DNA of 40,922 bases, taken from contig CP070716.1 in NCBI GenBank assembly GCA_020350425.1, forward strand, positions 2,209,369-2,250,290, in the 5' to 3' direction. Shown one piece after another: positions 1 through 23,054 of the stretch. The stretch is from Gemmatimonadota bacterium (GTDB taxonomy: Bacteria > Gemmatimonadota > Gemmatimonadetes > Gemmatimonadales > GWC2-71-9). The position numbers and the translations under genes were made by a program. Within the stretch, counting starts at the first letter, position 1, and each line of letters begins with the position of its first letter. Under the pieces are notes generated by a model, which searched no databases, was not told the DNA's origin, and was given only the letters and a program-made list of their open reading frames with translations.

Positions 1-531
1 AGGGGTGACGGGACCGCAGCGCACTTCGGACTAGCCGACGAGGTGGATATCGTGGTCGGCACCTTCTCTAAGTCCCTGGCTTCCATCGGCGGCTTCGTCG
101 CCGGCGACGAGGTCGTCGTCCATTACCTCAAGCACAACAGCCGCCCGTTGATCTTCACGGCCGCACTGCCGCCCGCGAACACCGCCGGCGTGCTCGCCGC
201 GCTGGAGGTCATGATCGCCGAGCCGGAGCGACGGGAGCGCCTGTGGGAGAACACGAGGCGCTTCCAGGAGGGCTGCCGCAGTCTCGGGTTCGACATCGGC
301 CCGACGCAGACGCCGATCGTGCCGGTCCTCATCGGCACGCTGACGAACACCTTTGCCTTCTGGCGTAGGCTGTTCGACGGCGGTGTGTTCACGAACCCGG
401 TGGTGCCGCCGGCCGTACCGCCCGATCAGTGCCGCCTACGGGCGAGCCTGATGGCCACCCACACCGCGGATCAGATCGACTCCGCACTCGAGACGTTCGG
501 GAGGCTCGGTCGGGAGATGGGGGTCATTTGA
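1..531 (+). CDS. spt: Serine palmitoyltransferase (alpha-oxoamine synthase family, PLP-dependent), 5'-truncated by the window edge
   Basis: Frame +1 is open from base 1 (RGDGTAAHFGLADEVDIVV...). It has the PLP-lysine motif GTFSKSLASIGGF (SPT-type GTFSKS rather than BioF/Kbl GTLxKA), plus SRPLIFTAALPP and FTNPVVPPAVP. Followed by bCerS-like and CerR-like genes. Confidence 0.8.
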   Translation, partial: RGDGTAAHFGLADEVDIVVGTFSKSLASIGGFVAGDEVVVHYLKHNSRPLIFTAALPPANTAGVLAALEVMIAEPERRERLWENTRRFQEGCRSLGFDIGPTQTPIVPVLIGTLTNTFAFWRRLFDGGVFTNPVVPPAVPPDQCRLRASLMATHTADQIDSALETFGRLGREMGVI

Positions 532-1649
532 CGCCCACCGTGGTCGTGCGCCCGGTCGAGACCGGCGCCGACCTCAAACAGTTCATCGCCTTTCCGTATC
601 GACTGCACCGTGGGGACCCCCTGTGGGTCCCCCCGTTGCGTATGGACATCCGCACCATGCTGTCGAAGGAGAAGAACCCCTTCTTTCAGCATGCCGACGC
701 CCGGTACTTCGTCGCGGTGACCGCCTCCGGGGACGTCGTCGGGCGCATCGCCGCGATCCACAACCACGCCCACAACGAGTTCCAGGAGGACCGGGTCGGC
801 TTCTTCGGGTTCTTCGAGTGCGTGGACGACCAGGCGGTGGCCCACGCCCTGTTCGAAGCGGCGGCGGCCTGGCTCAAGGAACGGGGCCTGGACACCATGC
901 GGGGTCCCGCCTCCTTCTCCACCAACGACGAGTGCGGCCTGTTGGTCGACGGCTTCGACACGCCGCCCACGCTCCTCAATCCGCACAACCCGCCGTACTA
1001 TGCGGCGCTGGTGGAGCGGGCGGGCTTCACCAAGTCCAAGGACCTGCACCAGTACCAGACGGTGAGCAACCAGCTTCCCGAGCGGCTGGTGCGGGGAGCC
1101 AAGCTGGTCGCCGAGCGCAAGAAGATCACGCTGCGCTCCCTCGACAAGAAGCGGTTCTTCGAGGAGGTGGACCAGATCAAGCCCCTGTACCACGCCGGGT
1201 GGGAGAAGAACTGGGGCTTCGTGCCGATGACCGACGCGGAGATCGATCACCTCGCCAAGCAGCTCAAGCCGGTGGTCGTGCCGGACCTCGTGGTGTTTGC
1301 GGAGCGCGAGGGCAAGACGATCGGGTTCGCCGTGGCGCTCCCCGACTTCAACGTGGCGCTCAAGACGAACCCCTCCGGACGCCTCTTCCCGGGGATCCTC
1401 AAGGTCCTCTGGGCGTCGCGCAGGATCACCCGCATCCGGATCATGCTGCTCGGGGTGCTGCCGGAGTACCGCAACACCGGGGCCGACGCGCTCATGTACC
1501 ACTGGATCTGGGACAAGGGCTATGCGCTCGGCTATCGCTGGGCGGAGGCCGGCTGGCTGCTGGAGGACAACCACCCCATGGCCAACGGACTGCTGCGCAT
1601 GGGGTTCGAGGTGTACAAGACCCTGAGGATGTACGACCGGCCACTGTGA
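528..1649 (+). CDS. bcerS: Bacterial ceramide synthase-like GNAT N-acyltransferase (bCerS/YghO family), 373 aa
   Basis: TTG start overlaps the spt stop (TTGA). Family motifs: FPYRLHRGDPLWVPPL, KNPFF, VGRIAA, GFFGFFEC, RGPASFSTNDECGLLVDGFD, NPPYY, WEKNWGFVPMT, and a C-terminal GNAT region LLGVLPEYRNTG...WLLEDN. Confidence 0.8.
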   Translation: MTPTVVVRPVETGADLKQFIAFPYRLHRGDPLWVPPLRMDIRTMLSKEKNPFFQHADARYFVAVTASGDVVGRIAAIHNHAHNEFQEDRVGFFGFFECVDDQAVAHALFEAAAAWLKERGLDTMRGPASFSTNDECGLLVDGFDTPPTLLNPHNPPYYAALVERAGFTKSKDLHQYQTVSNQLPERLVRGAKLVAERKKITLRSLDKKRFFEEVDQIKPLYHAGWEKNWGFVPMTDAEIDHLAKQLKPVVVPDLVVFAEREGKTIGFAVALPDFNVALKTNPSGRLFPGILKVLWASRRITRIRIMLLGVLPEYRNTGADALMYHWIWDKGYALGYRWAEAGWLLEDNHPMANGLLRMGFEVYKTLRMYDRPL

Positions 1650-2650
1650 GAGCCTGCGTCACGGGCGGGACCGGATTCGTGGGCTCTCACCTCGTCGACG
1701 CACTCCTGCGTCGCGGTGACGAGGTCGTCTGCCTCGTTCGCAGTCCCCAGAAGGCCGCGCGCCTGTTCACCGAGCGCGCGCCCCTCACGGTACGCGGAGA
1801 CCTCACCGACGAGAGCGCCTTGCACGAGGCGTGCGCGGGCGTCGACGTCGTGTTTCACCTCGCCGGGGTCACCGCGGCGCGCGACCGCGCGGAGTTTTTG
1901 GAGATCAACGCGGAGGGAACGCGCCGCGTGCTGCAGGCGGCAGCCGACGCGGCCCCGTCGCTCCAGCGCTTCGTGTACGTCAGCAGCCTTTCGGCTGCCG
2001 GCCCCGCCTCCCGGGGCCACCCGCTGACCGAGCGCGCGCCACCCAAGCCGATCAGCAACTACGGCGCCAGCAAGCTCGCCGCCGAGGAGGCGGTCCGCGG
2101 CGGTCGCGTGCCGTGGAACGTCGTGCGGCCGCCCGCCGTCTACGGGCCGCGGGACGCGGAGCTCGCCCGGGCGTTCAAGCTGGCGCGGTGGGGCCTCGCG
2201 CCGGTGTTCGGGGATGGCTCCCAGGAACTCTCGCTCGTCCACGTGAGCGACCTGGTGGCCGCACTGCTTGCCGTGGTCGACTCGGCCGCGTCCGGCGCCA
2301 CGTACTTCGCGGCGCACCCCGAAATCGTCGCGCAGCGCGAGCTGCAGCGCGCGATCCACGCGGCCGTGCTCCGGGCGCGCGGGGCAACGGCCGGCGGGCT
2401 GCGCCGTCCCATCGTCGTGCCGCTCCCGAGCCTGGTGACCCGCGGGGCGCTCTACGTCACCGGCACCGCCGCGCGCCTGGTGGGGCGGCCTACCGTCCTC
2501 TCCCCCGACAAGGGACCCGAATTCCTCGCCGAGGCGTGGACCTGCTCCTCCGCGGCGCTGGAGCGGGACACGGGGTGGCGAGCCGAGATCCCCGTCGCCG
2601 TCGGGGTCGACCAGACGGCGCGGTGGTACCACGAGCATCGCTGGCTATGA
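1646..2650 (+). CDS. cerR: NAD(P)-dependent epimerase/dehydratase-family (extended SDR) oxidoreductase, probable ceramide reductase CerR, 334 aa
   Basis: GTG start overlaps the upstream TGA. Rossmann motif VTGGTGFVG, HLAG, SSLSA, catalytic YGASK and RPPAVYGP. The CerR assignment rests on operon context. Confidence 0.65.
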   Translation: MRACVTGGTGFVGSHLVDALLRRGDEVVCLVRSPQKAARLFTERAPLTVRGDLTDESALHEACAGVDVVFHLAGVTAARDRAEFLEINAEGTRRVLQAAADAAPSLQRFVYVSSLSAAGPASRGHPLTERAPPKPISNYGASKLAAEEAVRGGRVPWNVVRPPAVYGPRDAELARAFKLARWGLAPVFGDGSQELSLVHVSDLVAALLAVVDSAASGATYFAAHPEIVAQRELQRAIHAAVLRARGATAGGLRRPIVVPLPSLVTRGALYVTGTAARLVGRPTVLSPDKGPEFLAEAWTCSSAALERDTGWRAEIPVAVGVDQTARWYHEHRWL

Positions 2651-3483
2651 ACCCGGTCGACAAGCTGCTCGCCGCGTACCTCGCGTTCGTGACGGTGATG
2701 GCGGCCGCACGCGGCGGCCTCGACGAGCCCACCACCTGGTGGATCGTCCTGGCGCACGCGCTCTTCGGGCTGCTGCTCTACCTGTTCACCCGTCTCACAC
2801 CGGAGAACCGCGCCGGCCAGTTCATCCACGATCTGTACCCGCTGCTCCTGCTCCCCGCGCTGTACACGGAGATCGGGCTCGTGAACGAAGTGTTCGGGAT
2901 CGACCGCGTCTTCCAGAACGACGCCCTGGTGCAGCGGTGGGAGGCCGCGCTGTTCGGCGGCCAGGTCTCCTACACGTGGATTCGCACGTTCCCGTCGGTG
3001 TTCTGGTCGGGCCTGCTGCACGTTGCCTACGTGAGCTACTACCCGATCGTCTACCTGGGACCGATCATCCTGGTGTTCCGCGGGCGACGCGACCGCGCGC
3101 GCCGTGTGCTGCTGGCCACCATGACCGCCTACGTCGTGTGCTACGTGGTGTTCATCGCCTTTCCGGTGGCCGGCCCCAACTGGGTGTTCGACCACCCGAC
3201 CGGTCCGGTGCGCGACGTGTGGAGCGCCCGCATGGTCTATGCCCTGCTCGCGGGCGGCTCGTCGGTGGGCGCGGCGTTCCCGTCGTCGCACGTCGCCGCT
3301 ACGATGGCAGCGGTGGCGGCGCTGTGGTGGGAGTGGCGCACGCTGTTCGCCGTGTTCGTGGTCCCGGCCACCCTCATGACCATCGCCACGGTGTACTGCC
3401 AGATGCACTACGCCATCGATGCGACGCTGGGGCTGCTGATCGGCGTGGGGTCGGCGGGAGTCGCGCGCCGCATCAAGCCATAG
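2647..3483 (+). CDS. PAP2-superfamily membrane protein of Aur1/inositol-phosphorylceramide-synthase type, 278 aa
   Basis: ATG overlaps the upstream TGA (ATGA). Multiple hydrophobic helices; motifs LHVAYVSYY, FPVAGP, AAFPSSHV and MHYAID (His/His/Asp triad). No KxxxxxxRP phosphatase C1 motif seen. Confidence 0.75.
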   Translation: MNPVDKLLAAYLAFVTVMAAARGGLDEPTTWWIVLAHALFGLLLYLFTRLTPENRAGQFIHDLYPLLLLPALYTEIGLVNEVFGIDRVFQNDALVQRWEAALFGGQVSYTWIRTFPSVFWSGLLHVAYVSYYPIVYLGPIILVFRGRRDRARRVLLATMTAYVVCYVVFIAFPVAGPNWVFDHPTGPVRDVWSARMVYALLAGGSSVGAAFPSSHVAATMAAVAALWWEWRTLFAVFVVPATLMTIATVYCQMHYAIDATLGLLIGVGSAGVARRIKP

Positions 3484-3498
3484 CACCCCAGCCGCGCG

Positions 3499-4617
3499 CT
3501 AGTGCTGGTGCGTCGAGTGGTCGTGCTCCGCGGCCACCGCCGCCCCCATACTCTCGACCGCCATCCCCGCGATCATCTCGTACGGGCCACGGACCTGCTG
3601 CAGGTAGTGCGCCCGGTCGAGCACGTAGAGCTCGTGCTGCTGCGAGGCGCGGGGCCACATCTCCGCCTTCGCCGGCTTGAAAACGCCGGCCACGACGCCC
3701 ATGCCCCCGGCGTACAGCGTGTCGGCGGTGGGGTTGTCGTAGGTCACCGAGACGCGATAGACGTGATCGGGCGTGATCTTCACGCCCCCGGTGCGGTACA
3801 GACGGCCGATGGTAACTCCCACGACCTCCTCTCCCTCATCGGTGATCGCCCGTCCCTCCCAGATCACCCGATTCTCGGTGACGTCCTCGAACTTGATGCT
3901 CGTCGCGTTCTCGTGCAGGTGGCTCCCAATGACCATGATGCGCCCCGGCATCACCGGGCTCGCCTCGTAGGACCAGGTCGATTCCCCCGGCGGCAGATCG
4001 AACGACTTGTCGCCTGCGGGGAACGCCACGTCCATCTGAAAGGGGAAGACGTTCATGAGGGGCCAGGGCCGACCGGCCTTTACGTACCGGAGCTTCACGC
4101 GTACGGTGACACCGACATGGTCCGCACCGGTGGGATTGTGGAGCATCGCGCTCACCACCATGCGGGTCCCGCCGGGCACGGGGTACCCCATCAGCAACCA
4201 CGGCATCGATTGTGCGCCCGTCTCCTTCCCCACGGCGAGAATCCGCTGAGAGATGGGGAGGAACAGCTCGCGGAAGTCGGGGTTGATCAGGTTCAGGTGG
4301 TGCACCAGCTCCGTCGGCAGCGGGGTTCCCTGCGCGTCGAGCACCTCGTAGTCGAACCCGTACAGGTAGACGGCGAAGGGGAAGCTCAACTCCGTCACCG
4401 GCGGAAAGACCGCTCCGCCGTGGCCGCCGTGCCCCCCGTGACCGGCCTCGGCCTCTCCGACCGCCATCGGCCCGCCTGGAAGGTCGACGGGACCGATCTC
4501 CACGACGAGCTCCTGCGCCTCGTCGTCGTTGACCAGCCGGACGGTCGGCTCCTGCGCCAACCCGATCCGGCCCGTGCCCGCGATCAGCACCAACGCAGCC
4601 ATAGCTCTCAACACCAC
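3499..4617 (-). CDS. Secreted protein with probable copper type II (PHM/DBH-like) monooxygenase fold
   Basis: Signal peptide ending GLA|QE. Ordered putative Cu ligands VHHLNL, MLHNP, GSHLHE and GGMG. His-rich segments GHGGHGGHGG and EHDHSTHQH. Confidence 0.55.
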   Translation of the reverse strand: MVLRAMAALVLIAGTGRIGLAQEPTVRLVNDDEAQELVVEIGPVDLPGGPMAVGEAEAGHGGHGGHGGAVFPPVTELSFPFAVYLYGFDYEVLDAQGTPLPTELVHHLNLINPDFRELFLPISQRILAVGKETGAQSMPWLLMGYPVPGGTRMVVSAMLHNPTGADHVGVTVRVKLRYVKAGRPWPLMNVFPFQMDVAFPAGDKSFDLPPGESTWSYEASPVMPGRIMVIGSHLHENATSIKFEDVTENRVIWEGRAITDEGEEVVGVTIGRLYRTGGVKITPDHVYRVSVTYDNPTADTLYAGGMGVVAGVFKPAKAEMWPRASQQHELYVLDRAHYLQQVRGPYEMIAGMAVESMGAAVAAEHDHSTHQH

Positions 4618-4669: not shown

Positions 4670-6133
4670 TCAAGCCTGCGCGGCCAGCGCGGTTCGCTGC
4701 ATCGGGTCCACGTCGGGAGCCACAGGCAGCACCCCGTCGATCCCCTCCGGGATGGGTACACCCAGATGCCCCAGGATGAGAGGAAAGGTGTCCACCGTGC
4801 GCACCGGGCCCACCAGATGCCGATTCGAGGCCACCAGGCAGCGCATGTGATCGGCGGTGAGGCTGCCGTGACCCGAGCGATGCTCCGGGATCTCCCAGTC
4901 GCGCCGCAGGTCCCAACCCACCTCGGCGATGATCACCAGGTCGCCCGCGCGGGGTGACCGGAAGAGCTGCAACAGTTGCGTCGGGGCGTCGGGATACGGC
5001 GAGCTCATCGTGCGCCGCAGCCACTCGCGGTCGTCGTGCTCGGCGGGGCCACCCAGCCCCAGCAGGTCCGCCGTATCGGGCAGATAGCGGATGCGGCCCC
5101 CGCCGGAGTCCACCAACCGCGCACGGCCCTCTCTGCCCACCAGCCGCACGGCGTCCCCGTCGTTCCCCACGACCAGCGCCACGCCAGGGAGCTGGGCCAA
5201 CTCGCGCACCAGGTTGCGGGGGATGTCCGCCACCATTCCGGCCTCGATCTCGCCGATCGTGAACCGCCGCGGGCGCGGCGTGCCGGGCCGGAGATAGAGC
5301 TGCACGGAGCCGTTGCCGGACACCATCACCCCCACCTTGGGGTCGCGGCGCCAGATCGCTGGGTAGCGCAGCGCCGGCATCCCCATCGCCTCCAACTCGA
5401 GACTCACGTCAGTGTGGTGCTCCACGGGCGTGAGACCGTGGTCGCTCACCAGCAGCGTGAGATGGTCGCCGTCGAAGCCGCCTGCCGCTGCGTAGTCACC
5501 GATGATGCGATCGAAGCCGCGGTACATGTCGAGCACGAGCGTGTGCCAGGGATCCCAGAAGTGGGTCACGCCGTCCACGCCGGGAAACACCGCGAACACG
5601 AAGCGGTGGCGCTCACGTGTCGTGCGGCAGAGTGCCCGCCCGACGGCCCGCTCGAGCGGCCCGTACGTGCCCACGTAGTGCGCCAGCGCCCCCCACAGCG
5701 CCCGCGCCCGCTGCACCCGGTCGCGCTCGGGCGGGAGCCCCCGGGTCAACGGACTGCACAGGGACACCGACTCGGGGACGAGATCGAACAGCGTGACGAG
5801 TCCGGGACGGAGATCGCTGTTGATGAGGCCGCCCTGCGGGCCGCAGTAGCTGCGCAGGTGCTCGCGGTCGCGCCACCACTCGCCGGTGTAGCCCCGCACA
5901 TCCATCCAGCGGATGCCGGGCACGTCGCAGGTACCCGGATAACACCCCGTGAGGAACGGCAGGTACGCCACCCCTGTGGTGGACGGGAAGACGGTGGTGG
6001 CGGGCACCATCCCGCCGGACTCCAGCAGGTACCGGCTGATGTTGGGGAGATCTCCCGCAGCGACGAGGTGCGCGAAGACATCGGCCCTCGCGCCGTCGAG
6101 AATGACCAGTGTCGCTCTGCGATCCGTCGTCAC
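4670..6133 (-). CDS. Alkaline phosphatase superfamily nucleotide pyrophosphatase/phosphodiesterase (type I phosphodiesterase), 487 aa
   Basis: LVILDGAR, FPSTTGVAY (catalytic Thr region), PGVDGVTH, VSDHG and SGHGS. GTG start at 6133 chosen because the upstream ORF extension lies in the divergent intergenic region. Confidence 0.85.
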   Translation of the reverse strand: MTTDRRATLVILDGARADVFAHLVAAGDLPNISRYLLESGGMVPATTVFPSTTGVAYLPFLTGCYPGTCDVPGIRWMDVRGYTGEWWRDREHLRSYCGPQGGLINSDLRPGLVTLFDLVPESVSLCSPLTRGLPPERDRVQRARALWGALAHYVGTYGPLERAVGRALCRTTRERHRFVFAVFPGVDGVTHFWDPWHTLVLDMYRGFDRIIGDYAAAGGFDGDHLTLLVSDHGLTPVEHHTDVSLELEAMGMPALRYPAIWRRDPKVGVMVSGNGSVQLYLRPGTPRPRRFTIGEIEAGMVADIPRNLVRELAQLPGVALVVGNDGDAVRLVGREGRARLVDSGGGRIRYLPDTADLLGLGGPAEHDDREWLRRTMSSPYPDAPTQLLQLFRSPRAGDLVIIAEVGWDLRRDWEIPEHRSGHGSLTADHMRCLVASNRHLVGPVRTVDTFPLILGHLGVPIPEGIDGVLPVAPDVDPMQRTALAAQA

Positions 6134-6170
6134 GGTTCGCCAATCTACCCAAGGCGCTTGAATTTTGCAG
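6134..6170 (-). promoter_or_regulatory. Candidate sigma70-type promoter for a leaderless or near-leaderless phosphodiesterase transcript
   Basis: Minus strand reads CTGCAA-N17-TAGATT, with the -10 at 6147-6142, 8 nt before the GTG at 6133. No Shine-Dalgarno. Locally AT-rich divergent spacer. Confidence 0.35.
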
Positions 6171-6192
6171 ACAATCGGTGAACTTGCATCGC

Positions 6193-6990
6193 ATGCCACC
6201 ACCACCACCGTGCACACACCTCGGCAAACACTGCCGTGAGCTGAGGGTGACCATGCGCGTCGCCGACCTGGAGGATGACAGCCAGAGTCTCCAGGATGCG
6301 TCGGCCACCTGGATGCTGGGACACACCGAGCGCATCACGATGGGAAAGCCCTACGTCGACGGGATCGAGCTGCTCGTCGATGCCACGATCCACGTGCCGT
6401 GCAAGTACCTCGACGTGCACGACGCCGCGGGCACCTCCCAGCACAACGGGCACCCCAGCGCCAGGTGCAAGGCGCACGGATTCCGCGGCCCCCTTCCCCG
6501 ACTCAGCCAGCCGGCACCGCAGGACCGATACGTGTTCCGCCGGGGCGGCAACCGCTTCGCCGTCGTGTACCGCGGCAAGCGCCGCGTGCTCGAGCTGCCG
6601 CTCAAGCGGGCCGCGCAGCGCGCGCTGCCCGTGATGCAGGGGAAGAACCCCTGTCTCGACGCGCCGTGCCGCACGGCCGACAACACCAAGGGCGCGGCGT
6701 GTTGCCGCGACCTCACGCTCGACCTGGTGCTTCCCAAGTCGCACACGCGGACGGAGTCGCTGTTGCGGTCCCGCAAGTCGCCGTACCTGTGCAAGGTCGA
6801 TCGTGACGGGCCCGATTCGGTGGAAATAGAGGTGATCTCGGCGTGCGGCTATCTCGACGCCGACGGCGTCAGCTGCGTGCTGCACGACCGCGTGCTTCCC
6901 AATGGCCGGGGCGCGAAGCCTTCCATCTGCTATGAGTGGCCCGATCTGGGCCCCGACGACGTCGGGCACCCGGGGTGCGCGCTGACGTGA
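6193..6990 (+). CDS. Cys-rich YkgJ/CxxCxxCC-like (putative Fe-S/Zn-binding) protein with two tandem related domains, 265 aa
   Basis: C-terminal half PCLDAPC...AACCRD...ACGYLD..SCVLHDR...KPSICYEWP matches the CxxCxxCC family pattern. N-terminal half PC....HCREL...PCKYLD...RCKAH is a degenerate copy. Confidence 0.6.
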   Translation: MPPPPPCTHLGKHCRELRVTMRVADLEDDSQSLQDASATWMLGHTERITMGKPYVDGIELLVDATIHVPCKYLDVHDAAGTSQHNGHPSARCKAHGFRGPLPRLSQPAPQDRYVFRRGGNRFAVVYRGKRRVLELPLKRAAQRALPVMQGKNPCLDAPCRTADNTKGAACCRDLTLDLVLPKSHTRTESLLRSRKSPYLCKVDRDGPDSVEIEVISACGYLDADGVSCVLHDRVLPNGRGAKPSICYEWPDLGPDDVGHPGCALT

Positions 6991-10265: not shown

Positions 10266-12470
10266 ATGAAGACGCTCATGGCTGCCCTGACGGCAACGCT
10301 GCTGGCCTCCCCCCTGCTGGCGCAGGGGTGGATCGAGCCGGTCCCGGGCCGGGATCCCGGCTTCGCGGTGGTGAAGGTCCGCACCACCGTCTCGGTGCAG
10401 GTGACCGGGCGGATCGCCCTGGTCGAGGTCGAAGAGTGGTTCCGCAACGACGGACGCGGCCTGGGGGAGGGTGACTACCTCTATCCGCTTCCGGGGGAGG
10501 CGGTGTTCAGCAACTTCTCACTGTTCCAGGGCGACCTGGAGCTGCGGGGGGAGACCATGGACGCCGATCAGGCGCGGGCGATCTACGAAGAGATCGTTCG
10601 GTTGAAGCGCGACCCGGCGCTCATCGAGTTGGCCGGGCACGGTCTCGTGCGGGCCCGCGTCTTTCCCATCAACGCGGGGGAAACGCGCAAGATCACCTTG
10701 CGCTACACCCAGATCATGGAGCGGGCCGGAGACGCGCTGCAGTTCCGCTACGCCGCCGGCGGCCGCTTCGGGCGCAGGGTGACCCCGGAGCAGGCCGTGG
10801 TGACCCAGCATCGCCCCGAGGACGCCCCGCTCACCTTCACCCTGGTGGCCGACAGCGGCAGCGCCTACGGGAATCCCTTCTCCCCGACCCATGCGCTGAA
10901 CGTGTCGCGGGAGCGGGGACGGCTCACCGTGCGGCCCGAGGACGAGCTGCGCGGGGACTTCGTGGTGTTTCTTCCCATGGCCCGCGGGCTGGTGGGGATC
11001 ACGCTGGTCACGCACAAGCCCGCCGGCGAGGACGGCTACTTCATGCTGACGCTCTCGCCCGGGAGCGCCGACGGCACCACGCTGCCACGCGACCTGACCG
11101 TGGTGCTCGACGTCTCCGGCTCCATGTCGGGCAGCAAGATTGATCAGGCGAAGGCGGCCCTGCGGCAACTGCTGGGGACGCTGGATCGTGAGGACCGCTT
11201 CCGGCTGCTGTCGTTCAGCAGCGGCGTGACCGCCTACCGCGCCGATTGGTCCGAGCCGAGCGGCCGCGCGCTGCGCGACGCCCACGCCTGGATCGACCGG
11301 CTCGTCGCCGACGGCGGCACCAACATCGCCGGGGCGTTGCAGGAGGCCTTCCGGCTCGACAGCCCCGAGACTCGGCTGCCCATCGTGGTGTTCCTGACCG
11401 ACGGGCTGCCCTCGGTGGGCGAGCAGAATCCCGAGCGCATCGCGCAACAGGCCGAGCAGCAGCGCGGCCGCGCCCGCGTGTTCGCCTTCGGGGTGGGTTA
11501 CGACGTGAACACCTACCTGCTCGACCGACTGTCGGCGGCCGGGCGGGGTGCCACCCAGTACGTACAGCCCGGCGAGGACGTCGAGCGGGCGTTGAGCGTG
11601 CTGGCGGCAAAGATCCAGCACCCGGTGCTGACCGACCTCGCGCTGGTCGACGCGCCGGTCGAGCTGGAGGAGATCTATCCCGGCACCCTGCCCGACCTGT
11701 TCGCGGGCGAGGAATTGGTCGTCTTCGGGCGGTACCGCACCTCCGACCGCGATCGGAGTGGCGCCATTACGGTGACAGGCCGCCGCAACCGGCGCACGGA
11801 GCGGTACGCGACCGACGCCCGGTTCCCCGATCACGCTCCGGGCAACGAGTTCATCCCCCGGCTGTGGGCGTCACGCAAGATCGGGTTCCTCACGCAGCAG
11901 GTCCGCCTGAACGGCGCCAACGACGAACTCATCGAGGAGATCCGCCGCACCGCGCTGCGCTACGGTCTGCTGAGCGAGTACACCTCCTACCTCGTGCAGG
12001 AACCGGAGGACGTCGCTGTGCGCCGGGACGCTCCGAGGCGCGGACAGCCCGTCAACACCCCCGCCGCCGAGGCGCAGTCCGGCGTGGGCGCGGTCGTCGC
12101 CGCCGAGGAAGCCCGCATGAAGCGGGAGGCGAAGTCGGCCGTGGATCTGATCGAAATGGAGGACGCATTCTACGCCCGCGGCCACATGGGCCAGGCGCGG
12201 CACGTCGCCGGCCGCCTGTTCGCCGAGCGGGACGGCGTCTGGACCGACTTGAAGCACGCCGATTCGGTGCGCACCGTGGAGATCGCCCCGTACGGTGAGG
12301 CGTACTTCGCGCTGCTCCGGCTGGCGCCCGAGCTCGAGCCCTACTTCCGGGAGTTCGGGCAGGTGTTGATCGCCGGCGACCGCGTGAGCATCCGCGTGGC
12401 GGACGGCGGGCTCGAAACGATGTCGACGCCCGAGCTGGCGCGCCTAGTGCGCGACTTCCGGGCACGGTAA
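10266..12470 (+). CDS. Exported VIT + von Willebrand factor A domain protein (inter-alpha-trypsin inhibitor heavy-chain-like)
   Basis: Signal peptide (LLA|QG), VIT domain (EGDYLYPLP...DPALIE...RVFPI), vWA MIDAS motifs DVSGSMSG, GGTNI and FLTDG, and C-terminal RLWA..I / YGLLSEYTSYLV. Confidence 0.9.
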   Translation: MKTLMAALTATLLASPLLAQGWIEPVPGRDPGFAVVKVRTTVSVQVTGRIALVEVEEWFRNDGRGLGEGDYLYPLPGEAVFSNFSLFQGDLELRGETMDADQARAIYEEIVRLKRDPALIELAGHGLVRARVFPINAGETRKITLRYTQIMERAGDALQFRYAAGGRFGRRVTPEQAVVTQHRPEDAPLTFTLVADSGSAYGNPFSPTHALNVSRERGRLTVRPEDELRGDFVVFLPMARGLVGITLVTHKPAGEDGYFMLTLSPGSADGTTLPRDLTVVLDVSGSMSGSKIDQAKAALRQLLGTLDREDRFRLLSFSSGVTAYRADWSEPSGRALRDAHAWIDRLVADGGTNIAGALQEAFRLDSPETRLPIVVFLTDGLPSVGEQNPERIAQQAEQQRGRARVFAFGVGYDVNTYLLDRLSAAGRGATQYVQPGEDVERALSVLAAKIQHPVLTDLALVDAPVELEEIYPGTLPDLFAGEELVVFGRYRTSDRDRSGAITVTGRRNRRTERYATDARFPDHAPGNEFIPRLWASRKIGFLTQQVRLNGANDELIEEIRRTALRYGLLSEYTSYLVQEPEDVAVRRDAPRRGQPVNTPAAEAQSGVGAVVAAEEARMKREAKSAVDLIEMEDAFYARGHMGQARHVAGRLFAERDGVWTDLKHADSVRTVEIAPYGEAYFALLRLAPELEPYFREFGQVLIAGDRVSIRVADGGLETMSTPELARLVRDFRAR

Positions 12471-12480
12471 ACTGGACGGC

Positions 12481-12984
12481 GTGAGCGTCGACTGGGCGGA
12501 AGTGTACCGCACGACCTTCGAGGACCTGGTCCGCTTCCTGCACCGCAAGGTGTGGGATGCGGACCGGGCGAAGGACCTGGCACAGGAGGTGTTCGTGCGC
12601 GCGCTCGATCACCGGCCGGACAACCCGAAGGCCTGGCTCTTCACCGTGGCGAGCAACCTCGCGCGTGACGAGGCCCGAACGGCGATCCGCCGCCGCAAGC
12701 ACCTCACGCTCCTCAAGTCGGAAGTCGCCGGGCAGAGCGCGCCCGACCCGGCCGAGGAGCTCGACCGGGAGCAGCGCATGGAGCAGGTACGCGCGGCGCT
12801 CAACCGGCTGAGCGAACGGGATCGCGACGTGCTCCTGCTGTGGGACGCCGGGCTCGATTACGGCGAGATCGCCGCGGAGACCGGCCTCTCGAAGGGCGCG
12901 GTCGGCACGACGCTGGGACGCGCGCGCCGCCGCCTGGTGGAGGCGTACGGCGCGCTGGAGGACAAAGATGTCGCACATCGATGA
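12481..12984 (+). CDS. ECF RNA polymerase sigma factor
   Basis: Region 2 AKDLAQEVFVRA...KAWLFTVASNLARD and region 4 LSERDRDVLLL...GLDYGEIAAETGLSKGAVGTTLGRARRRL. Confidence 0.93.
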   Translation: MSVDWAEVYRTTFEDLVRFLHRKVWDADRAKDLAQEVFVRALDHRPDNPKAWLFTVASNLARDEARTAIRRRKHLTLLKSEVAGQSAPDPAEELDREQRMEQVRAALNRLSERDRDVLLLWDAGLDYGEIAAETGLSKGAVGTTLGRARRRLVEAYGALEDKDVAHR

Positions 12985-14155
12985 GGGACTGCTGCACGCC
13001 TACCTCGACGGCGAGACCGACGGGGCGGAGCGGTCAGGCCTCGAGCAGCACCTGGACATTTGTGCCGAGTGCCGCACGCGGCTGGCGGAGGCCCGCACGC
13101 TGCGCGATCGCAGCGCGGCGATTCTGAGCGGCTCCGGTCCCGCGACGGTGACCGCGCCTCCCTTCGAGCAGGTCGTGGCGCGTTCCCGCGCGGTGGAGAC
13201 CCGGCGGCGCGTATTCCGTCTGAACCGCCTCGCCGCGCTGGGCTGGGCGGCGACGATCGTGCTCGCGGTGGGCGTGGGGTGGATCGCCCGGGGCTCGCTG
13301 GGATTCGGCGAGCGACCGGCGGAGCAACGCAGCGTCGCCGTGGCGGACAGCACGCCCGAGCAGGCCGCGGACGTGGAAGCGGGTGTGGTGGGGGGTGCAC
13401 CTGCGCAGGTCGCGGCGCGCGAGAGCACCTCCGAGACCGAGCGCGAGGCGCGTCGCGACGAGGCCGCGCCGACAGGCGCCGCGAAGTCGGAAGTCGCCGC
13501 GCCGGGGCGTGCCGAGGGACAGCTCACGCCCGAGACCGAGCAGGCGAGGGCGAAACTGGCCGAGGCAGAGGTGGAGCAGCAGCCGGCTGCGGGGGTCGCC
13601 ATCCCCGTTGCACCGGCCCCGGTTCAGGTGCGCACGAGGGGTGCGGTCGCGCTCGCCGACTCGGCGGACCAGGAGCCGGCCGAGCGCCGAGCAGCGCAAC
13701 CGGCGGCGGCCGCAGAGGCCTTCGCCGCGCATGAGGTGGACCTAGACGCGCTGGTCGGCCTGCCGGGAGAAGGGGCGGCGTGGAACGAGACCGACGAGCA
13801 GACCGCGCGGGAGTTGCTGGGCGCCCCCCTCCTGCGGCTCCCCGACGCCGCCGTCGTGGCGTACCTCGTCCCGGCCGAGGAGGGCCGGCGCGCCGTGCAG
13901 CTGGTGCAGCGCCTCGCCTCCGGTGAGGTCGTGGTGCTGCGGCAGGAGGCGGTGGCAGCGATCGCAACCGGGGAGCGGGTGGCCGGGCCGGCGGAGGAGC
14001 GGGCGCAGGCGCGCGATGAGCTGAAGGCGATGAACGAGCCCCTGCTGGGAACCGGCCTCGCGTCCGCGACCGTGCGTCGCGGGGATTACCTGCTCACGTT
14101 GCGCGGCACGCTGCCGCCCGACTCCCTGCAGGCACTGCTCGACGCGCTGCCCTAG
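12968..14155 (+). CDS. Zinc-binding (zf-HC2/ZAS) transmembrane anti-sigma factor
   Basis: N-terminal H...LHAYLDGE...HLDICAEC (HxxxCxxC), one TM (WAATIVLAVGVGWI) and an Ala/Glu-rich extracytoplasmic region. Overlaps the sigma gene. Confidence 0.88.
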   Translation: MSHIDEGLLHAYLDGETDGAERSGLEQHLDICAECRTRLAEARTLRDRSAAILSGSGPATVTAPPFEQVVARSRAVETRRRVFRLNRLAALGWAATIVLAVGVGWIARGSLGFGERPAEQRSVAVADSTPEQAADVEAGVVGGAPAQVAARESTSETEREARRDEAAPTGAAKSEVAAPGRAEGQLTPETEQARAKLAEAEVEQQPAAGVAIPVAPAPVQVRTRGAVALADSADQEPAERRAAQPAAAAEAFAAHEVDLDALVGLPGEGAAWNETDEQTARELLGAPLLRLPDAAVVAYLVPAEEGRRAVQLVQRLASGEVVVLRQEAVAAIATGERVAGPAEERAQARDELKAMNEPLLGTGLASATVRRGDYLLTLRGTLPPDSLQALLDALP

Positions 14156-15606: not shown

Positions 15607-16863
15607 CTAGTGGTGGCCGGTAGCCTCCGCCTGCGCGGTGAGCCGCGGGCTCACCATCGGGAACGTACGCGCGAACAGCCCGTACGCCAGCAGGAACAAT
15701 CCCAGGAACCCGAGGGAGATCCCGATCTCCGGCAGCCCGATCTGGGGCGCGTGCTCCGTGAGGGAGGGCTGCACCAGCAAGTAGCGCTCCAGCCACACCC
15801 CCAGCAAGCTGATGAGCACGAACAGGGTGAACGTGAACGCGGTCACCTTCGACTTCACCCAGATCAGGCCCCAGAAGGGAATGAGGAAGACCATCAACCC
15901 TACCATGATCGAGATCGGCTGCCAGTCGCCCCACAGCCGGTAGAAGACGAACGACGTCTCCTCCCGCAGGTTGCCGTACCAGATCACGAGCAGCTGGCTG
16001 AATACCAGATACGCCCAGAACACCGAGAAGCCGAAGATCAGCTTGCCCAGATCATGAAACTGCTGCCGGCCGATCACGTCGCGCATTCCCAGGCGGCGGC
16101 GCCAGTAGACCATCATCAGCCCCAGCATCGTGAGCCCCGTGAGCACCGCACCCATGAAGAAGAAGGCACCGAACAGGTTGCTGATCCAGTACGGCGCGAG
16201 CGACATCACGAGGTCGAACGCGATGAGCGAGAAGAGCCACGCGTACATCACGCACAGGGCCACCGCCAGCCGGCTGAGCCGCCGCTCGAGCTTCTCCTGG
16301 TCCGCGGGCATGCCGCTGTAGCCGGCCGCGATGCGGTCGTACAGGATCCGCTTCCACCCGGTCACCTGTCCCCGCAGCTCTGCCACGTCCGGCTTCACAT
16401 CCGTATACACAAACGCCACGGCCACGACCAGGAGTGCGAGGAGCGCCACCAGATCCCGCCAGAACACCCACGAGACCGTGAGCCACTGGCCGCGCGCCGG
16501 CGTCGGGTGCTCGATCCAGGGGAACACCTCCTCGCGCCCCAGGAACAGCACCAGGAAACAGACGACGGCGACGGGGAGGAACGCCACCGACGCCTCGGCG
16601 AAACGGATGATCGGTCCGGACCACACGCCCTTGGTGATCTTCTGCGTGGCGGCGAAGACCGTGGCGCCGAGCGCGATCCCGGTGAAGAACAGGAAGTTCA
16701 CGTGGAACAGGCGCCAGGCGCGTCCGGGGTCATCGCCCGTGACGAGCGCGACGAACAGCCCCAGCCCGAGCACGGCGAGCAGGGCGCCAAGCAGGAGCAT
16801 CCCGCGTGCCGGCGCGTTGGCGCTGCGGCGGAGGAGCTCGTCGTTCGGGATGCCCAGGCTCAT
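15607..16863 (-). CDS. actF: Alternative complex III membrane subunit ActF (NrfD-like), 418 aa
   Basis: ATG at 16863 overlaps the actE stop. About 10 TM helices; AFDLVMSLAPYWISNLFG, HDLGKLIFGFSVFWAYLVFSQLLVIWYGNLREE and WLERY. Confidence 0.88.
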   Translation of the reverse strand: MSLGIPNDELLRRSANAPARGMLLLGALLAVLGLGLFVALVTGDDPGRAWRLFHVNFLFFTGIALGATVFAATQKITKGVWSGPIIRFAEASVAFLPVAVVCFLVLFLGREEVFPWIEHPTPARGQWLTVSWVFWRDLVALLALLVVAVAFVYTDVKPDVAELRGQVTGWKRILYDRIAAGYSGMPADQEKLERRLSRLAVALCVMYAWLFSLIAFDLVMSLAPYWISNLFGAFFFMGAVLTGLTMLGLMMVYWRRRLGMRDVIGRQQFHDLGKLIFGFSVFWAYLVFSQLLVIWYGNLREETSFVFYRLWGDWQPISIMVGLMVFLIPFWGLIWVKSKVTAFTFTLFVLISLLGVWLERYLLVQPSLTEHAPQIGLPEIGISLGFLGLFLLAYGLFARTFPMVSPRLTAQAEATGHH

Positions 16864-17414
16864 TGTGCCGCTCCCTGCAGCAACCGCACGTAGTTGACGA
16901 CGTGCCAACGATCTTCCGGACTGATCTTGCTGCCGTATTCGGGCATCAGGGCGCCGAAGCCGTTGGTGATCGTCCCGTAGATCCAGCCGTCGCTGTTGTC
17001 GACCTGGCGCTGCTCGGTCAGGTTGCGCACCGCGTTCGCCAAGGCGGGAGCCACGGGGCCGTCCCCCCGCCCCTCGGAGCCGTGGCACACCGTGCAGTAG
17101 ATCTCGTAGCGATCGCGGCCACGCTCCATGCTCGAAGCGGTGCGCTGCACCGGATTGGACAGGCGATCGAGCGTCGACCGATTCTGCGGGATCGCGGGCG
17201 GCACGACCTCGATGCCCGTCACCGGCACCGTCCCCTCCACCGGCTGGCGCGGCATCTTGTACGGTTGGATGGCGATGCCCCGGTGCATCACCGCGAACCA
17301 CGGGATCGCCGCGACGAGGTCATCGGGGCTCGGGAAGCGGTGCCACTGCTCCCGCGTGCAGCCGCTGATGAGCAGCGCGACGGCGGCCAAGGCGAGGGCG
17401 AGCTTACGTCTCAA
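16860..17414 (-). CDS. actE: Alternative complex III monoheme cytochrome c lipoprotein ActE, 184 aa
   Basis: GGAGG RBS before the TTG at 17414, lipobox LISGC, PVEGTVP, CTVCHG heme motif, distal Met in LMPEY, and DRWHVVNYVR. Confidence 0.88.
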   Translation of the reverse strand: MRRKLALALAAVALLISGCTREQWHRFPSPDDLVAAIPWFAVMHRGIAIQPYKMPRQPVEGTVPVTGIEVVPPAIPQNRSTLDRLSNPVQRTASSMERGRDRYEIYCTVCHGSEGRGDGPVAPALANAVRNLTEQRQVDNSDGWIYGTITNGFGALMPEYGSKISPEDRWHVVNYVRLLQGAAQ

Positions 17415-19265: not shown

Positions 19266-19270
19266 TCGCG

Positions 19271-22294: not shown

Positions 22295-22327
22295 CCGTCC
22301 TCTACCCGTGAGCGCCCGTTCGCCCGC

Positions 22328-22900: not shown

Positions 22901-23022
22901 GGCGCTCCATGTCGAGCCCCGGCCGTGAGCGCGGGGCGCCGTGCCGTTGTCATACCAGAAACCGCAAACTGAAAGCGGCCGCAGAGGGGCAATACACGAG
23001 AATCCGGTCGCGGCCGCCGTGT

Positions 23023-23054
23023 AAGATAGTCGCCGGCCCCGGTTGCACAACCGG
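23023..23054 (-). promoter_or_regulatory. Candidate act operon promoter with a palindromic operator over the -35
   Basis: Minus strand TTGTGC-N16-TATCTT (-35 at 23050-23045, -10 at 23028-23023). The -35 lies inside the inverted repeat CCGGTTG-CA-CAACCGG (23039-23054). Confidence 0.4.

What the first reader, a model, noticed from the sequence alone, without database searches (positions are those of the whole stretch)
2647..3483. Aur1/IPC-synthase-like phosphotransferase as a candidate ceramide head-group enzyme
Seen: AAFPSSHV and MHYAID match the AFPSLH and HYxxD catalytic motifs of yeast Aur1 and sphingomyelin-synthase-type enzymes. The KxxxxxxRP motif of PAP2 phosphatases is not visible. Established: Aur1/SMS enzymes transfer a phospho-head group from a glycerophospholipid to ceramide, and an Aur1-like enzyme acts in Bacteroides inositol sphingolipid synthesis. 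Inference: the product is a phosphosphingolipid with an unknown head group (inositol, ethanolamine or glycerol). No inositol-lipid genes are in this window, so it may be a different donor.
Basis: partly seen in the sequence, partly recalled or inferred. Interest (0 to 1): 0.7.

Follow-up and report, generated by a model that had tools for sequence, protein, structure and literature searches.

The report
Aur1-like ceramide head-group transferase gene
The last gene of a four-gene sphingolipid operon in an uncultured Gemmatimonadota bacterium encodes a membrane enzyme built like the yeast inositol-phosphoceramide synthase Aur1, so this common soil and sediment phylum probably makes phosphosphingolipids, most likely with an inositol head group.

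Summary
ORF 2647..3483 (+), 278 aa, carries AAFPSSHV and MHYAID and has no KxxxxxxRP. It matches Pfam PAP2_3 (E 4.4e-18). A confident model (pLDDT 94.9) matches yeast Aur1 over its whole length (Z 17.7, 251-255 residues); phosphatases match only the core. His215/His254/Asp258 align with the Aur1 triad H255/H294/D298.

The gene overlaps the stop codon of an upstream SDR reductase (ATGA) and closes a tightly coupled spt / bCerS-like / cerR-like / PAP2_3 operon. That order is kept in 64 of 65 informative genome loci. Linkage to bCerS or cerR also holds in 33 of 36 metagenome loci seeded from distant relatives, in seven arrangements. In 151 Gemmatimonadota genomes, all 83 with a homologue also have bCerS.

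A same-genus genome has an overlapping PIP-synthase/MIPS gene pair, and in this MAG that region falls in an assembly gap. One relative lacks both the PAP2_3 gene and the PIPS-MIPS pair but keeps spt-bCerS-cerR.

Best reading: a ceramide phospho-head-group transferase (about 0.7), most likely an IPC synthase (about 0.45 overall). No biochemistry exists. It is a new member of a known kind.

The parts
1..531 (+). 3' part (176 codons) of a serine palmitoyltransferase-like gene (spt), cut by the contig end
   Evidence: Pfam Aminotran_1_2 E 5.8e-25. The best NCBIfam model is the serine palmitoyltransferase equivalog NF047600, 220.7 bits on the fragment. The full-length orthologue in G138 scores 522 bits on the same model (cut-off 640), above BioF at 391 and Kbl at 369. 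The window is one whole contig of a MAG whose contigs are joined by runs of 100 N.
540..1649 (+). bCerS-like GNAT-type N-acyltransferase (putative bacterial ceramide synthase); the GTG at 540 or 546 lies 9-15 nt after the spt stop
   Evidence: Weak Pfam Acetyltransf_1 match, E 4.9e-4, and no NCBIfam model. The position between spt and the SDR reductase is kept in 74 of 80 genome loci. Start region read. It was not compared directly with Caulobacter bCerS.
1646..2650 (+). cerR-like NAD-dependent SDR (epimerase/dehydratase family) reductase; its GTG start overlaps the bCerS stop (GTGA)
   Evidence: Pfam Epimerase E 1.6e-41. Overlap read. Found upstream of the PAP2_3 gene in 77 of 80 genome loci.
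2647..3483 (+). the finding: a 278-aa PAP2_3 / Aur1-fold integral membrane enzyme, putative ceramide phospho-head-group transferase; its ATG overlaps the cerR stop (ATGA)
2920..2922 (+). codon of Asp92, invariant in the family (in NDALVQRWEAALFG); role unknown
   Evidence: Invariant in the 40-sequence alignment A1 and the 27-sequence alignment A2.
3079..3105 (+). Arg-rich loop RGRRDRARR (residues 145-153), predicted to be cytoplasmic
   Evidence: Six Arg in this stretch, and three more Lys/Arg at the C-terminus (ARRIKP). By the positive-inside rule the two catalytic loops then face the periplasm (inference).
3271..3294 (+). C2-type motif AAFPSSHV with catalytic His215
   Evidence: Aligned with Aur1 AFPSLH (H255). 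Invariant P212, S213, H215.
3403..3420 (+). C3-type motif MHYAID with His254 and Asp258
   Evidence: Aligned with Aur1 HHYFVD (H294, D298). Invariant H254, D258.

Best explanation
The gene encodes an integral inner-membrane enzyme of the Aur1 / sphingolipid-synthase branch of the PAP2 (lipid phosphatase/phosphotransferase) superfamily. It is the last gene of a translationally coupled operon: spt, bCerS-like, cerR-like, PAP2_3. Proposed mechanism, inferred by analogy with the Aur1 mechanism in PMC13133130: Asp258 activates His254, which attacks the phosphodiester of a glycerophospholipid. This releases diacylglycerol and leaves a phospho-head-group on the histidine. His215 then activates the C1 hydroxyl of the (dihydro)ceramide made by the three upstream enzymes, and the ceramide takes over the phospho-head-group. 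The positive-inside rule puts the active site on the periplasmic face. The most likely donor is phosphatidylinositol, giving inositol phosphoceramide. Relatives carry a PIP-synthase/MIPS pair, and the one close relative that lacks that pair also lacks this gene. Shown: the sequence motifs, fold, operon structure, synteny and co-occurrence. Inferred: the transferase rather than hydrolase chemistry, the acceptor, the donor and the topology. My sub-odds are: any ceramide phospho-head-group transfer about 0.7; inositol specifically about 0.45 overall.
For: 1. Family. PAP2_3 is the best Pfam match, at 66.2 bits.
2. Fold. The model has pLDDT 94.9. Foldseek's two hits at E<=0.001 are both Aur1 (9vj4_A, TM 0.67/0.66; 9ivc_A); the next, LpxE, has TMq 0.38. 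VIA-align gives Aur1 Z 17.7 with 251-255 residues aligned over model 1..278. LpxE gives Z 17.0 but only 162 residues (90..276), and SMSr Z 10.0.
3. Active site. The family profile aligns to Aur1 over positions 11-277 against Aur1 42-313. H215/H254/D258 lie on H255/H294/D298, S213 on S253 and Y128 on Y153. The Aur1 residues are defined in PMC13133130 (passages read).
4. Phosphatase residues. No K-x6-RP in 0 of 40 members; SR-x5-H-x3-D in only 1 of 40.
5. Operon. The GTGA and ATGA start/stop overlaps were read.
6. Synteny. Of 65 genome loci with at least 2.5 kb upstream, 64 have bCerS and cerR. Of 36 such metagenome loci seeded from relatives 30-45% identical, 33 have bCerS or cerR, in 7 arrangements.
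7. Phyletic pattern in 151 genomes. There are 83 with a homologue and 98 with bCerS, and all 83 lie within the 98. In family f2 the figures are 3 of 31 within 5 of 31.
8. Inositol. MIPS is in 128 of 151 genomes. In same-genus G059 a CDP-alcohol transferase (PIPSynth, 157.5 bits, cut-off 170) overlaps the MIPS start. Among bCerS-positive genomes the homologue is present in 81 of 91 with MIPS and in 2 of 7 without it. Those two are the incomplete own MAG and G026, which has a PIPS fragment at a contig end. G039 keeps spt-bCerS-cerR but lacks exactly this gene and exactly the PIPS-MIPS pair, with no N and a 13-bp junction.
9. Weak expression hint. One error-free 537-nt contig of a metatranscriptome library bridges the cerR/PAP2_3 junction (2293-2829), and a second study has a 206-nt contig inside the gene.
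Against: 1. No activity, lipid or mutant data exist for any member of this clade.
2. Sequence similarity to Aur1 is marginal (profile E 8e-4, 16-18% identity). LpxE, a phosphatase, scores a better E-value (2.3e-5) on the C2-C3 core and an equal Z.
3. A shared fold does not fix the chemistry or the donor.
4. The inositol argument is thin. MIPS is almost universal in the class and does not co-vary with this gene (f2: MIPS 28 of 31 against PAP2_3 3 of 31). G039 is a single event. Four f1 genomes (G106, G140, G149, G150) have no homologue yet keep MIPS; the gap after cerR was inspected in three of them (G140, G149, G150). The MIPS-negative genomes are few and related to one another.
5. PssA and PgsA-like genes are present, so PE and PG are available donors.
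6. The own MAG holds no PIPS or MIPS as assembled.
7. The cerR-like protein starts 5 residues before its GxxGxxG motif, so it has no signal peptide. Ceramide may therefore be finished in the cytoplasm and need flipping to reach a periplasm-facing site.
8. bCerS and cerR were named from family, order and literature description. They were not compared directly with the Caulobacter proteins.
9. RNA-library contigs can come from contaminating DNA, and no control stretch could be laid.
Confidence: 0.67

Rival explanations
1. It is a ceramide phospho-head-group transferase, but the donor is phosphatidylethanolamine or phosphatidylglycerol. The product would be ceramide phosphoethanolamine or ceramide phosphoglycerol, as found in Bacteroides and Porphyromonas, whose synthases were not identified in the papers I read. 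(This overlaps the general transferase claim of the best explanation and differs only in the donor.)
For: The own genome has PssA (126 bits, above the cut-off of 107) and PgsA-like genes. No PIPS or MIPS is present in the assembled MAG. MIPS does not co-vary with this gene across families. Relatives of Aur1 and SMS are reported to differ in, or to be promiscuous for, their donor (PMC13133130 passage). BLAST with a eukaryotic EPC synthase found nothing in B. thetaiotaomicron (PMC8791184), so bacterial EPC synthases are still open.
Against: The PIPS-MIPS region of this MAG lies in an assembly gap, and the same-genus genome has it. G039 lacks both this gene and PIPS-MIPS. The best structural match is the PI-specific Aur1, not the PE-using SMSr (Z 17.7 against 10.0). 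Pfam PAP2_C (PF14360) was not among the three matches at E<=1.
Confidence: 0.22
2. It is a lipid phosphate phosphatase of the sphingolipid pathway. It might dephosphorylate ceramide-1-phosphate or a long-chain-base phosphate, or remove the extra phosphate of a PIP-type intermediate.
For: It belongs to the PAP2 superfamily, and source databases name its relatives 'membrane-associated phospholipid phosphatase' or 'phosphatase PAP2 family protein'. LpxE, PgpB, G6PC1 and the acid phosphatases share its core fold at Z 13-17. The H-H-D triad is common to hydrolases and transferases.
Against: The Lys and Arg of motif C1 and the Ser-Arg of C3 are replaced throughout the family (0 of 40 and 1 of 40). 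In my recollection these residues bind the phosphomonoester in PAP2 phosphatases. A classical PAP2 in the same genome keeps them. Only Aur1 matches the N-terminal 90 residues. Its distribution follows bCerS and not MIPS, so it is not a general PIP phosphatase. I looked for no ceramide kinase gene, and none was annotated in the window.
Confidence: 0.07
3. It acts on a different acceptor or has no sphingolipid role. For example, it could modify another envelope lipid or work as a phospholipase-C-like diacylglycerol generator, and its linkage to the spt operon would be inherited gene order.
For: 79 of the 80 genome loci are from one phylum, so their synteny could be inherited. The gene is dispensable in some lineages that keep spt-bCerS-cerR. 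SMSr is reported to hydrolyse glycerophospholipids without ceramide (abstract of PMC7988496, seen in the listing).
Against: Linkage survives seven different gene arrangements in divergent metagenome loci. In the 151 sampled genomes the homologue never occurs without bCerS. Its start codon overlaps the cerR stop codon.
Confidence: 0.04

Closest known systems
Saccharomyces cerevisiae Aur1, catalytic subunit of inositol phosphorylceramide synthase (PDB 9vj3/9vj4, 9ivc)
   Same: It is the best structural match over the whole chain (Z 17.7, 251-255 residues; TM 0.67). The motifs are the same: AFPSLH against AFPSSH, and HYFVD against HYAID. The H-H-D triad and Ser253/Tyr153 equivalents align. There is no K-x6-RP. 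Both belong to Pfam PAP2_3.
   Different: Identity is only 16-18%. The bacterial protein is 278 aa against 401 and lacks the C-terminal tail. No Kei1-like partner gene is evident in the operon. It is encoded with the bacterial Spt/bCerS/CerR pathway. Its donor is unknown, whereas Aur1 is strictly PI-specific (PMC13133130).
Bacteroides thetaiotaomicron BT_1522 (Aur1-like PI-dihydroceramide / IPC synthase)
   Same: It is a bacterial Aur1 homologue shown by knockout and complementation to be needed for inositol phosphoceramide (PMC8791184, PMC9246714; passages read). It depends on a MIPS plus PIP-synthase supply of PI, and such a pair also exists in Gemmatimonadota.
   Different: BT_1522 sits in the inositol operon BT_1522-1526, away from spt. 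The gene here sits in the ceramide operon, and PIPS-MIPS lies elsewhere: 20-80 kb away on the same contig in many family members.
Sphingomyelin synthase family (SMS1/2, SMSr; PDB 8ijq)
   Same: They carry out the same kind of reaction, phospho-head-group transfer from a glycerophospholipid to ceramide, on the same LPT core. Some Atlas look-alike clusters carry PF14360 PAP2_C on 13% of members.
   Different: The structural match is weaker (Z 10.0, 192 residues). P0002 itself has no PF14360 match. A different catalytic scheme has been proposed for SMSr (PMC13133130).
Membrane PAP2 phosphatases (LpxE 6ebu, PgpB 5jki/5jwy, LPP1, G6PC1)
   Same: They share the six-helix core and the C2/C3 histidines and aspartate (Z 13-17). 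LpxE gives the best sequence E-value to the profile (2.3e-5, C2-C3 only).
   Different: They match only residues about 90-278. The C1 Lys/Arg-Pro and the C3 Ser-Arg are missing here.
Caulobacter crescentus phosphosphingolipid genes (CpgB ceramide kinase, CpgC, CpgA)
   Same: These also decorate ceramide made by Spt/bCerS/CerR, and they lie next to those genes (PMC11324152).
   Different: The chemistry and families are unrelated: a kinase, then enzymes that add phosphoglycerate. The passages I searched in that paper mention no PAP2 enzyme (0 occurrences of 'PAP2').

Membership tests
PAP2 / LPT superfamily | Pfam match above the gathering score | tested here: met
   PAP2_3 66.2 bits (cut-off 27); PAP2 34.7 bits (cut-off 27.2).
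PAP2 / LPT superfamily | C2 histidine and C3 H-x3-D on loops on the same side of the membrane | tested here: met
   H215, H254 and D258 are invariant in 40 sequences. Both loops lie opposite the Arg-rich loop and the C-terminus (the topology is inferred).
Aur1-type sphingolipid synthase (PAP2_3 branch) | H-H-D triad aligned with Aur1 H255/H294/D298 | tested here: met
   Profile-to-Aur1 alignment; triad residues defined in PMC13133130.
Aur1-type sphingolipid synthase (PAP2_3 branch) | Whole-chain fold match that includes the helices N-terminal to the LPT core | tested here: met
   Model 1..278 aligns with Aur1 44..318, 251-255 residues, Z 17.7. Phosphatases align from about residue 86-99 onward. 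Foldseek's two hits at E<=0.001 are both Aur1.
Aur1-type sphingolipid synthase (PAP2_3 branch) | Significant sequence similarity to Aur1 | tested here: inconclusive
   Profile E 7.9e-4 (22 bits) against 177,635 PDB sequences, 16-18% identity.
Aur1-type sphingolipid synthase (PAP2_3 branch) | Genetic coupling to ceramide synthesis | tested here: met
   ATGA overlap with cerR. 64 of 65 and 33 of 36 informative loci are linked. All 83 genomes with a homologue have bCerS.
Aur1-type sphingolipid synthase (PAP2_3 branch) | Transfers phosphoinositol from PI to ceramide | not testable with these tools
   This needs an enzyme assay or lipidomics.
Aur1-type sphingolipid synthase (PAP2_3 branch) | The organism can make PI (MIPS plus PIP synthase) | tested here: inconclusive
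   Not found in the 75%-complete own MAG, but the flanking genes stop at or lie near contig ends. Present as an overlapping pair in same-genus G059 and adjacent in G138. MIPS is in 73 of 74 genomes of the family.
Aur1-type sphingolipid synthase (PAP2_3 branch) | Kei1-like regulatory subunit | not tested
   The operon has no extra small membrane-protein gene. I did not search for one.
PAP2 lipid phosphate phosphatases (PgpB, LpxE, LPP) | C1 motif K-x6-R-P | tested here: not met
   0 of 40 family members. The control paralogue L004 has KGVANRTRP.
PAP2 lipid phosphate phosphatases (PgpB, LpxE, LPP) | C3 motif S-R-x5-H-x3-D | tested here: not met
   P0002 has A-T at the S-R positions (ATVYCQMHYAID). 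The motif occurs in 1 of 40 members.
Sphingomyelin synthase family | Pfam PAP2_C (PF14360) / SMS-type architecture | tested here: not met
   PF14360 is not among the three Pfam matches at E<=1. SMSr gives Z 10.0 over 192 residues.
BT_1522-type bacterial IPC synthase | Close sequence relationship to BT_1522 | not tested
NCBIfam gave P0002 no specific model.

The most novel reading that the evidence does not exclude
Gemmatimonadota, and relatives in other phyla whose look-alike clusters are labelled Acidobacteriota and Pseudomonadota, make inositol phosphoceramide with a stand-alone Aur1-fold enzyme. The enzyme needs no Kei1 partner and is hard-wired into the bacterial Spt/bCerS/CerR operon. This would be a second, widespread bacterial route to inositol sphingolipids outside Bacteroidota. 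It would also provide a minimal prokaryotic model of the antifungal target Aur1, and it raises the possibility that the eukaryotic IPC synthase fold has a bacterial origin.
Probability: 0.4. Interest if true: 0.65.

Novelty: new member of a known kind. Interest (0 to 1): 0.5.

Why it matters
Bacterial ceramide synthesis (Spt, bCerS, CerR) is now known, and papers predict producers in dozens of phyla (PMC11334938). Head-group enzymes, however, are known only for Bacteroides IPC (BT_1522) and the Caulobacter phosphoglycerate lipids. In my searches I found no paper on sphingolipids of Gemmatimonadota or on a PAP2_3 gene in the spt operon.

If the prediction holds, it would:
- name the phosphosphingolipid synthase of a phylum that is abundant in soils and sediments;
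- give lipid geochemists a gene marker for bacterial phosphoceramides;
- give structural biologists a 278-residue, single-subunit relative of the antifungal target Aur1.

It is still an annotation-level prediction within a known enzyme family, not a new mechanism.

Tried and rejected
1. My first translation, from 2649, was out of frame; corrected.

I repeated it with 11 sequences (A3).

4. Taxon names for distant relatives: the listing of cluster members gave none. The Atlas gave only 'commonest phylum' labels, so the taxonomic range outside Gemmatimonadota stays uncertain.

5. Guessing NCBIfam accessions next to NF052561 in the hope of a BT_1522 model gave unrelated families. It was a dead end.

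6. [quoted passage not shown] 2022) is not held under its DOI or PMC id. bCerS and CerR are therefore named from secondary descriptions in PMC11087976 and PMC11334938.

7. The own-genome paralogues L002 and L003 and the second bCerS-like gene have no sphingolipid or inositol neighbours. They are not rival candidates for the operon's function.

8. General PIP phosphatase idea: rejected because the gene's distribution follows bCerS, not MIPS.

9. A literature search that included Gemmatimonadetes with min_terms 3 returned only mammalian sphingolipid papers. I repeated it strictly.

10. RNA-library contigs leave parts of the operon uncovered.

11. No complex prediction was run, because no partner is claimed.

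Full report
**What is in the sequence.** The window has about 70% G+C. It is one complete contig of a metagenome-assembled genome whose contigs are joined by runs of 100 N. The genome is rated 75% complete. An ATG at 2647 opens a 278-codon frame that ends with TAG at 3481-3483. My first translation, from 2649, was out of frame. AAFPSSHV is residues 209-216 (nt 3271-3294) and MHYAID is residues 253-258 (nt 3403-3420).

**Family.** The best Pfam match is PAP2_3 (PF14378; E 4.4e-18, 66.2 bits, cut-off 27). Generic PAP2 comes second (E 1.8e-8). NCBIfam has no specific model; the only traces are UppP and LpxE at E about 0.1. Homologues are plentiful:
- 1295 proteins at E<=1e-3 among the 8000 candidates scored, the best 70% identical. 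The few named hits are called PAP2 phosphatases of Gemmatimonadota MAGs.
- 1732 clusters at 50% identity at E<=1e-3, 727 at E<=1e-10 and 60 at E<=1e-30.

An alignment of 40 members down to 27% identity keeps D92, Y128, P173, P177, P212, S213, H215, H254, D258 and G262 invariant. The C1 motif of PAP2 phosphatases is absent in 40 of 40 members. S-R-x5-H-x3-D is present in 1 of 40, and HY/HFxxD in 40 of 40. A classical PAP2 elsewhere in the same genome (L004) has KGVANRTRP. The loss of the Lys/Arg residues is therefore a property of this family and not of the organism.

**Fold.** AlphaFold2 on the 40-sequence alignment gave mean pLDDT 94.9 and pTM 0.92, an all-helical membrane protein.
- Foldseek against the PDB: the only two hits at E<=0.001 are yeast Aur1, namely 9vj4_A (E 3.7e-4, TM 0.67/0.66) and 9ivc_A. 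LpxE follows with TMq 0.38.
- VIA-align: Aur1 Z 17.7 with 251-255 residues aligned over model 1..278 against Aur1 44..318. LpxE has Z 17.0 with 162 residues from model residue 90 onward. PgpB and G6PC1 have Z 13-14 from about residue 86-99 onward. SMSr has Z 10.0.
- Only Aur1 accounts for the N-terminal three helices.

A profile of the family aligns to Aur1 from end to end (positions 11-277 against 42-313, E 7.9e-4). H215/H254/D258 fall on H255/H294/D298, S213 on S253 and Y128 on Y153. PMC13133130 defines H255/H294/D298 as the essential triad. It describes the two-step mechanism through a phospho-histidine intermediate (passages read) and reports strict PI specificity for Aur1. The sequence similarity to Aur1 is marginal. 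The structural similarity is not.

**Operon.**
- The spt-like fragment ends with TGA at 529-531.
- The next frame can start at GTG 540 or 546.
- Its TGA (1647-1649) overlaps a GTG at 1646 that opens the SDR gene.
- The SDR gene's TGA (2648-2650) overlaps the ATG of the finding.

The four products are as follows.
- An Aminotran_1_2 fragment whose best NCBIfam model is serine palmitoyltransferase. The full-length orthologue in G138 scores 522 bits on that model, below its cut-off of 640 but above BioF and Kbl.
- A protein of about 370 aa with a weak GNAT match.
- An NAD-dependent epimerase-family reductase (E 1.6e-41).
- The PAP2_3 protein.

The first three fit the Spt, bCerS, CerR trio as described in PMC11087976, which PMC11334938 says is often clustered on genomes. 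I could not compare the bCerS-like and cerR-like proteins directly with the Caulobacter enzymes. Downstream, on the other strand, lie an unknown 372-aa gene and a type I phosphodiesterase-family gene.

**Is the linkage more than inherited order?**
- Genome collection: 587 stretches encoded a relative and the best 80 were kept. 79 of these are labelled Gemmatimonadota and one 'Bacillota' MAG.
- Of 65 loci with at least 2.5 kb upstream, 64 have bCerS and cerR, and 63 also have spt, always in the same order. The exception, L040, is a partial copy.
- A metagenome scan seeded with 11 distant relatives returned 80 loci. Of the 36 with at least 2.5 kb upstream, 33 have bCerS or cerR.
- Of 37 loci that are under 45% identical to P0002 and have at least 2.5 kb on one side, 32 are linked. 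Seven gene arrangements occur, including divergent bCerS and cerR placed elsewhere.
- Three loci with ample flank are unlinked: L123, L132 and L150.

In an even sample of 151 Gemmatimonadota genomes, 149 of them at least 90% complete, a homologue (E<=1e-5) is present in 83 and bCerS in 98.
- All 83 lie within the 98.
- 15 genomes have bCerS only, and 53 have neither.
- In family f2, where both genes are rare, the 3 of 31 with the homologue lie within the 5 of 31 with bCerS.

These counts were made by comparing the two tables by hand. They include the unpublished genomes G053 and G093. Related genomes are not independent.

**Head group.**
- MIPS was not found in the own MAG.
- MIPS is present in 128 of 151 sampled genomes: 73 of 74 in the same family, including the same-genus genome G059, which is 97% complete.
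- In G059 a CDP-alcohol phosphatidyltransferase overlaps the MIPS start codon. Its best NCBIfam models are phosphatidylinositol-phosphate synthase (157.5 bits, cut-off 170) and the BT1523-type PIP synthase.
- G138 has the same adjacent pair.

In the own MAG none of NamZ, PIPS, MIPS or the cupredoxin gene gives a tblastn hit.
- The left flanking gene (84% identical) is cut by a contig end.
- The right flanking genes sit on a 2-kb contig, near its end.

The absence is therefore an assembly gap and not a loss.

Among bCerS-positive genomes, the PAP2_3 homologue is present in 81 of 91 with MIPS and in 2 of 7 without.
- The two are the own MAG and G026, which carries a PIPS fragment at a contig end.
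- The five that lack it are G039, G093, G128, G002 and G005.

G039 (99% complete, same family) is the clearest case.
- It keeps spt-bCerS-cerR, followed directly by the neighbouring genes, with the PAP2_3 gene missing.
- NamZ and the cupredoxin gene are 13 bp apart, with PIPS and MIPS missing and no N.

Against over-reading this:
- MIPS does not co-vary with the gene (f2: 28 of 31 against 3 of 31).
- G140, G149 and G150 lack the gene at the operon but keep MIPS, and G106, of the same genus as G140, also has no homologue but keeps MIPS.
- PssA and PgsA-like genes make PE and PG possible donors.

I therefore treat inositol as the most likely head group, not as established.

**Topology and mechanism (inferred).** Six Arg in 145-153 and three Lys/Arg at the C-terminus mark the cytoplasmic side. 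The loops that carry the C2 and C3 motifs then face the periplasm, as the active site of Aur1 faces the lumen. PMC11087976 places Caulobacter CerR in the periplasm, which would deliver ceramide to that face. Here, though, the cerR-like protein starts five residues before its GxxGxxG motif and so has no signal peptide. Where ceramide is completed remains open.

**Expression.** Near-identical DNA occurs in sediment, mangrove and other metagenomes from several studies. In metatranscriptome libraries, one error-free 537-nt contig covers 2293-2829 across the cerR/PAP2_3 junction. A 206-nt contig from a second study lies at 3220-3425. Contigs from RNA libraries can derive from DNA, and I could lay no control stretch. 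This is a weak hint of co-transcription.

**Comparison and novelty.** The closest characterised enzymes are Aur1 and the Bacteroides Aur1 homologue BT_1522, shown by knockout and complementation to be needed for IPC (PMC8791184, PMC9246714). Caulobacter decorates ceramide with unrelated enzymes (PMC11324152). My searches found no paper on Gemmatimonadota sphingolipids or on a PAP2_3 gene in the spt operon. The library lacks most subscription journals, and the key 2022 paper was not held. Its supplementary tables may already list Gemmatimonadota among the Spt/bCerS/CerR carriers.

**Verdict.**
- The finding is a real, correctly delimited gene.
- It is a new, uncharacterised member of the Aur1-type sphingolipid synthase kind.
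- It probably acts as a phosphoceramide synthase (about 0.7), most likely for inositol phosphoceramide (about 0.45 overall).
- No experimental support exists yet.

Noticed in passing
window 6109..6990 (+): A Cys-rich protein (up to 293 aa in the open frame) with no Pfam or NCBIfam match. It lies downstream of the operon in 62 of 80 genome loci and stays in place where the PAP2_3 gene is lost (G039, G140, G149, G150). In other loci a cupredoxin gene on the opposite strand lies between it and the operon, and an ECF sigma factor follows. Function unknown.
   Followed up: partly
window 3499..4617 (-) and 4670..6217 (-): An unknown 372-aa protein and a type I phosphodiesterase / nucleotide pyrophosphatase family protein (PF01663, E 1.9e-18) lie between the operon and the Cys-rich gene. 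They are variable: found in 18 and 5 of the 80 genome loci. Whether the phosphodiesterase acts on lipid head groups was not examined.
   Followed up: partly
window 1646..1690 (+): The cerR-like reductase begins only five residues before its GxxGxxG motif, so it has no N-terminal signal peptide. Caulobacter CerR, by contrast, is reported to be periplasmic (PMC11087976).
   Followed up: no
L093 (G039:C3:219000-233000) and L177 (G039:C3:194000-208000): This close relative lacks exactly the PAP2_3 gene in the spt operon and exactly the PIPS-MIPS pair between NamZ and the cupredoxin gene. All flanking genes are intact and there are no assembly gaps.
   Followed up: yes
own genome, G000:C1:447960-449066 (outside the window): A second bCerS-like gene (42% identical) lies next to a Ser/Thr protein kinase and an M6 peptidase, with no spt or reductase nearby. 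G059 has the same paralogue.
   Followed up: partly
own genome, L003 (G000:C1:1983608-1984492) and L002 (G000:C1:1490113-1491258): Two further transferase-type PAP2_3 paralogues. L003 has HFPSLH and HYLVD, even closer to the Aur1 motifs. It sits divergently from an Orn/Arg-decarboxylase-like gene and a PEMT-acyltransferase fusion, which may be another lipid head-group pathway.
   Followed up: partly
G123:C1:3128430-3129224: The PAP2_3 orthologue of this single-contig genome matches in three adjacent pieces (residues 161-267, 37-141 and 2-50). This suggests frameshifts: either a pseudogene or long-read assembly errors.
   Followed up: no
L040 (CP070792.1): A partial copy of the gene (residues 88-273, 65% identical) lies away from any spt, bCerS or cerR gene. 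It is the only unlinked locus among the 65 informative genome loci.
   Followed up: no
window 15607..23050 (-): A cluster of a multihaem cytochrome c7-like protein, a 1007-aa molybdopterin-oxidoreductase / 4Fe-4S fusion and two NrfD-family membrane proteins. From recall it looks like an alternative complex III-type quinol oxidoreductase module.
   Followed up: no
window 10266..14155 (+): A VIT-VWA protein is followed by an ECF sigma-70 factor and a zf-HC2 anti-sigma factor.
   Followed up: no
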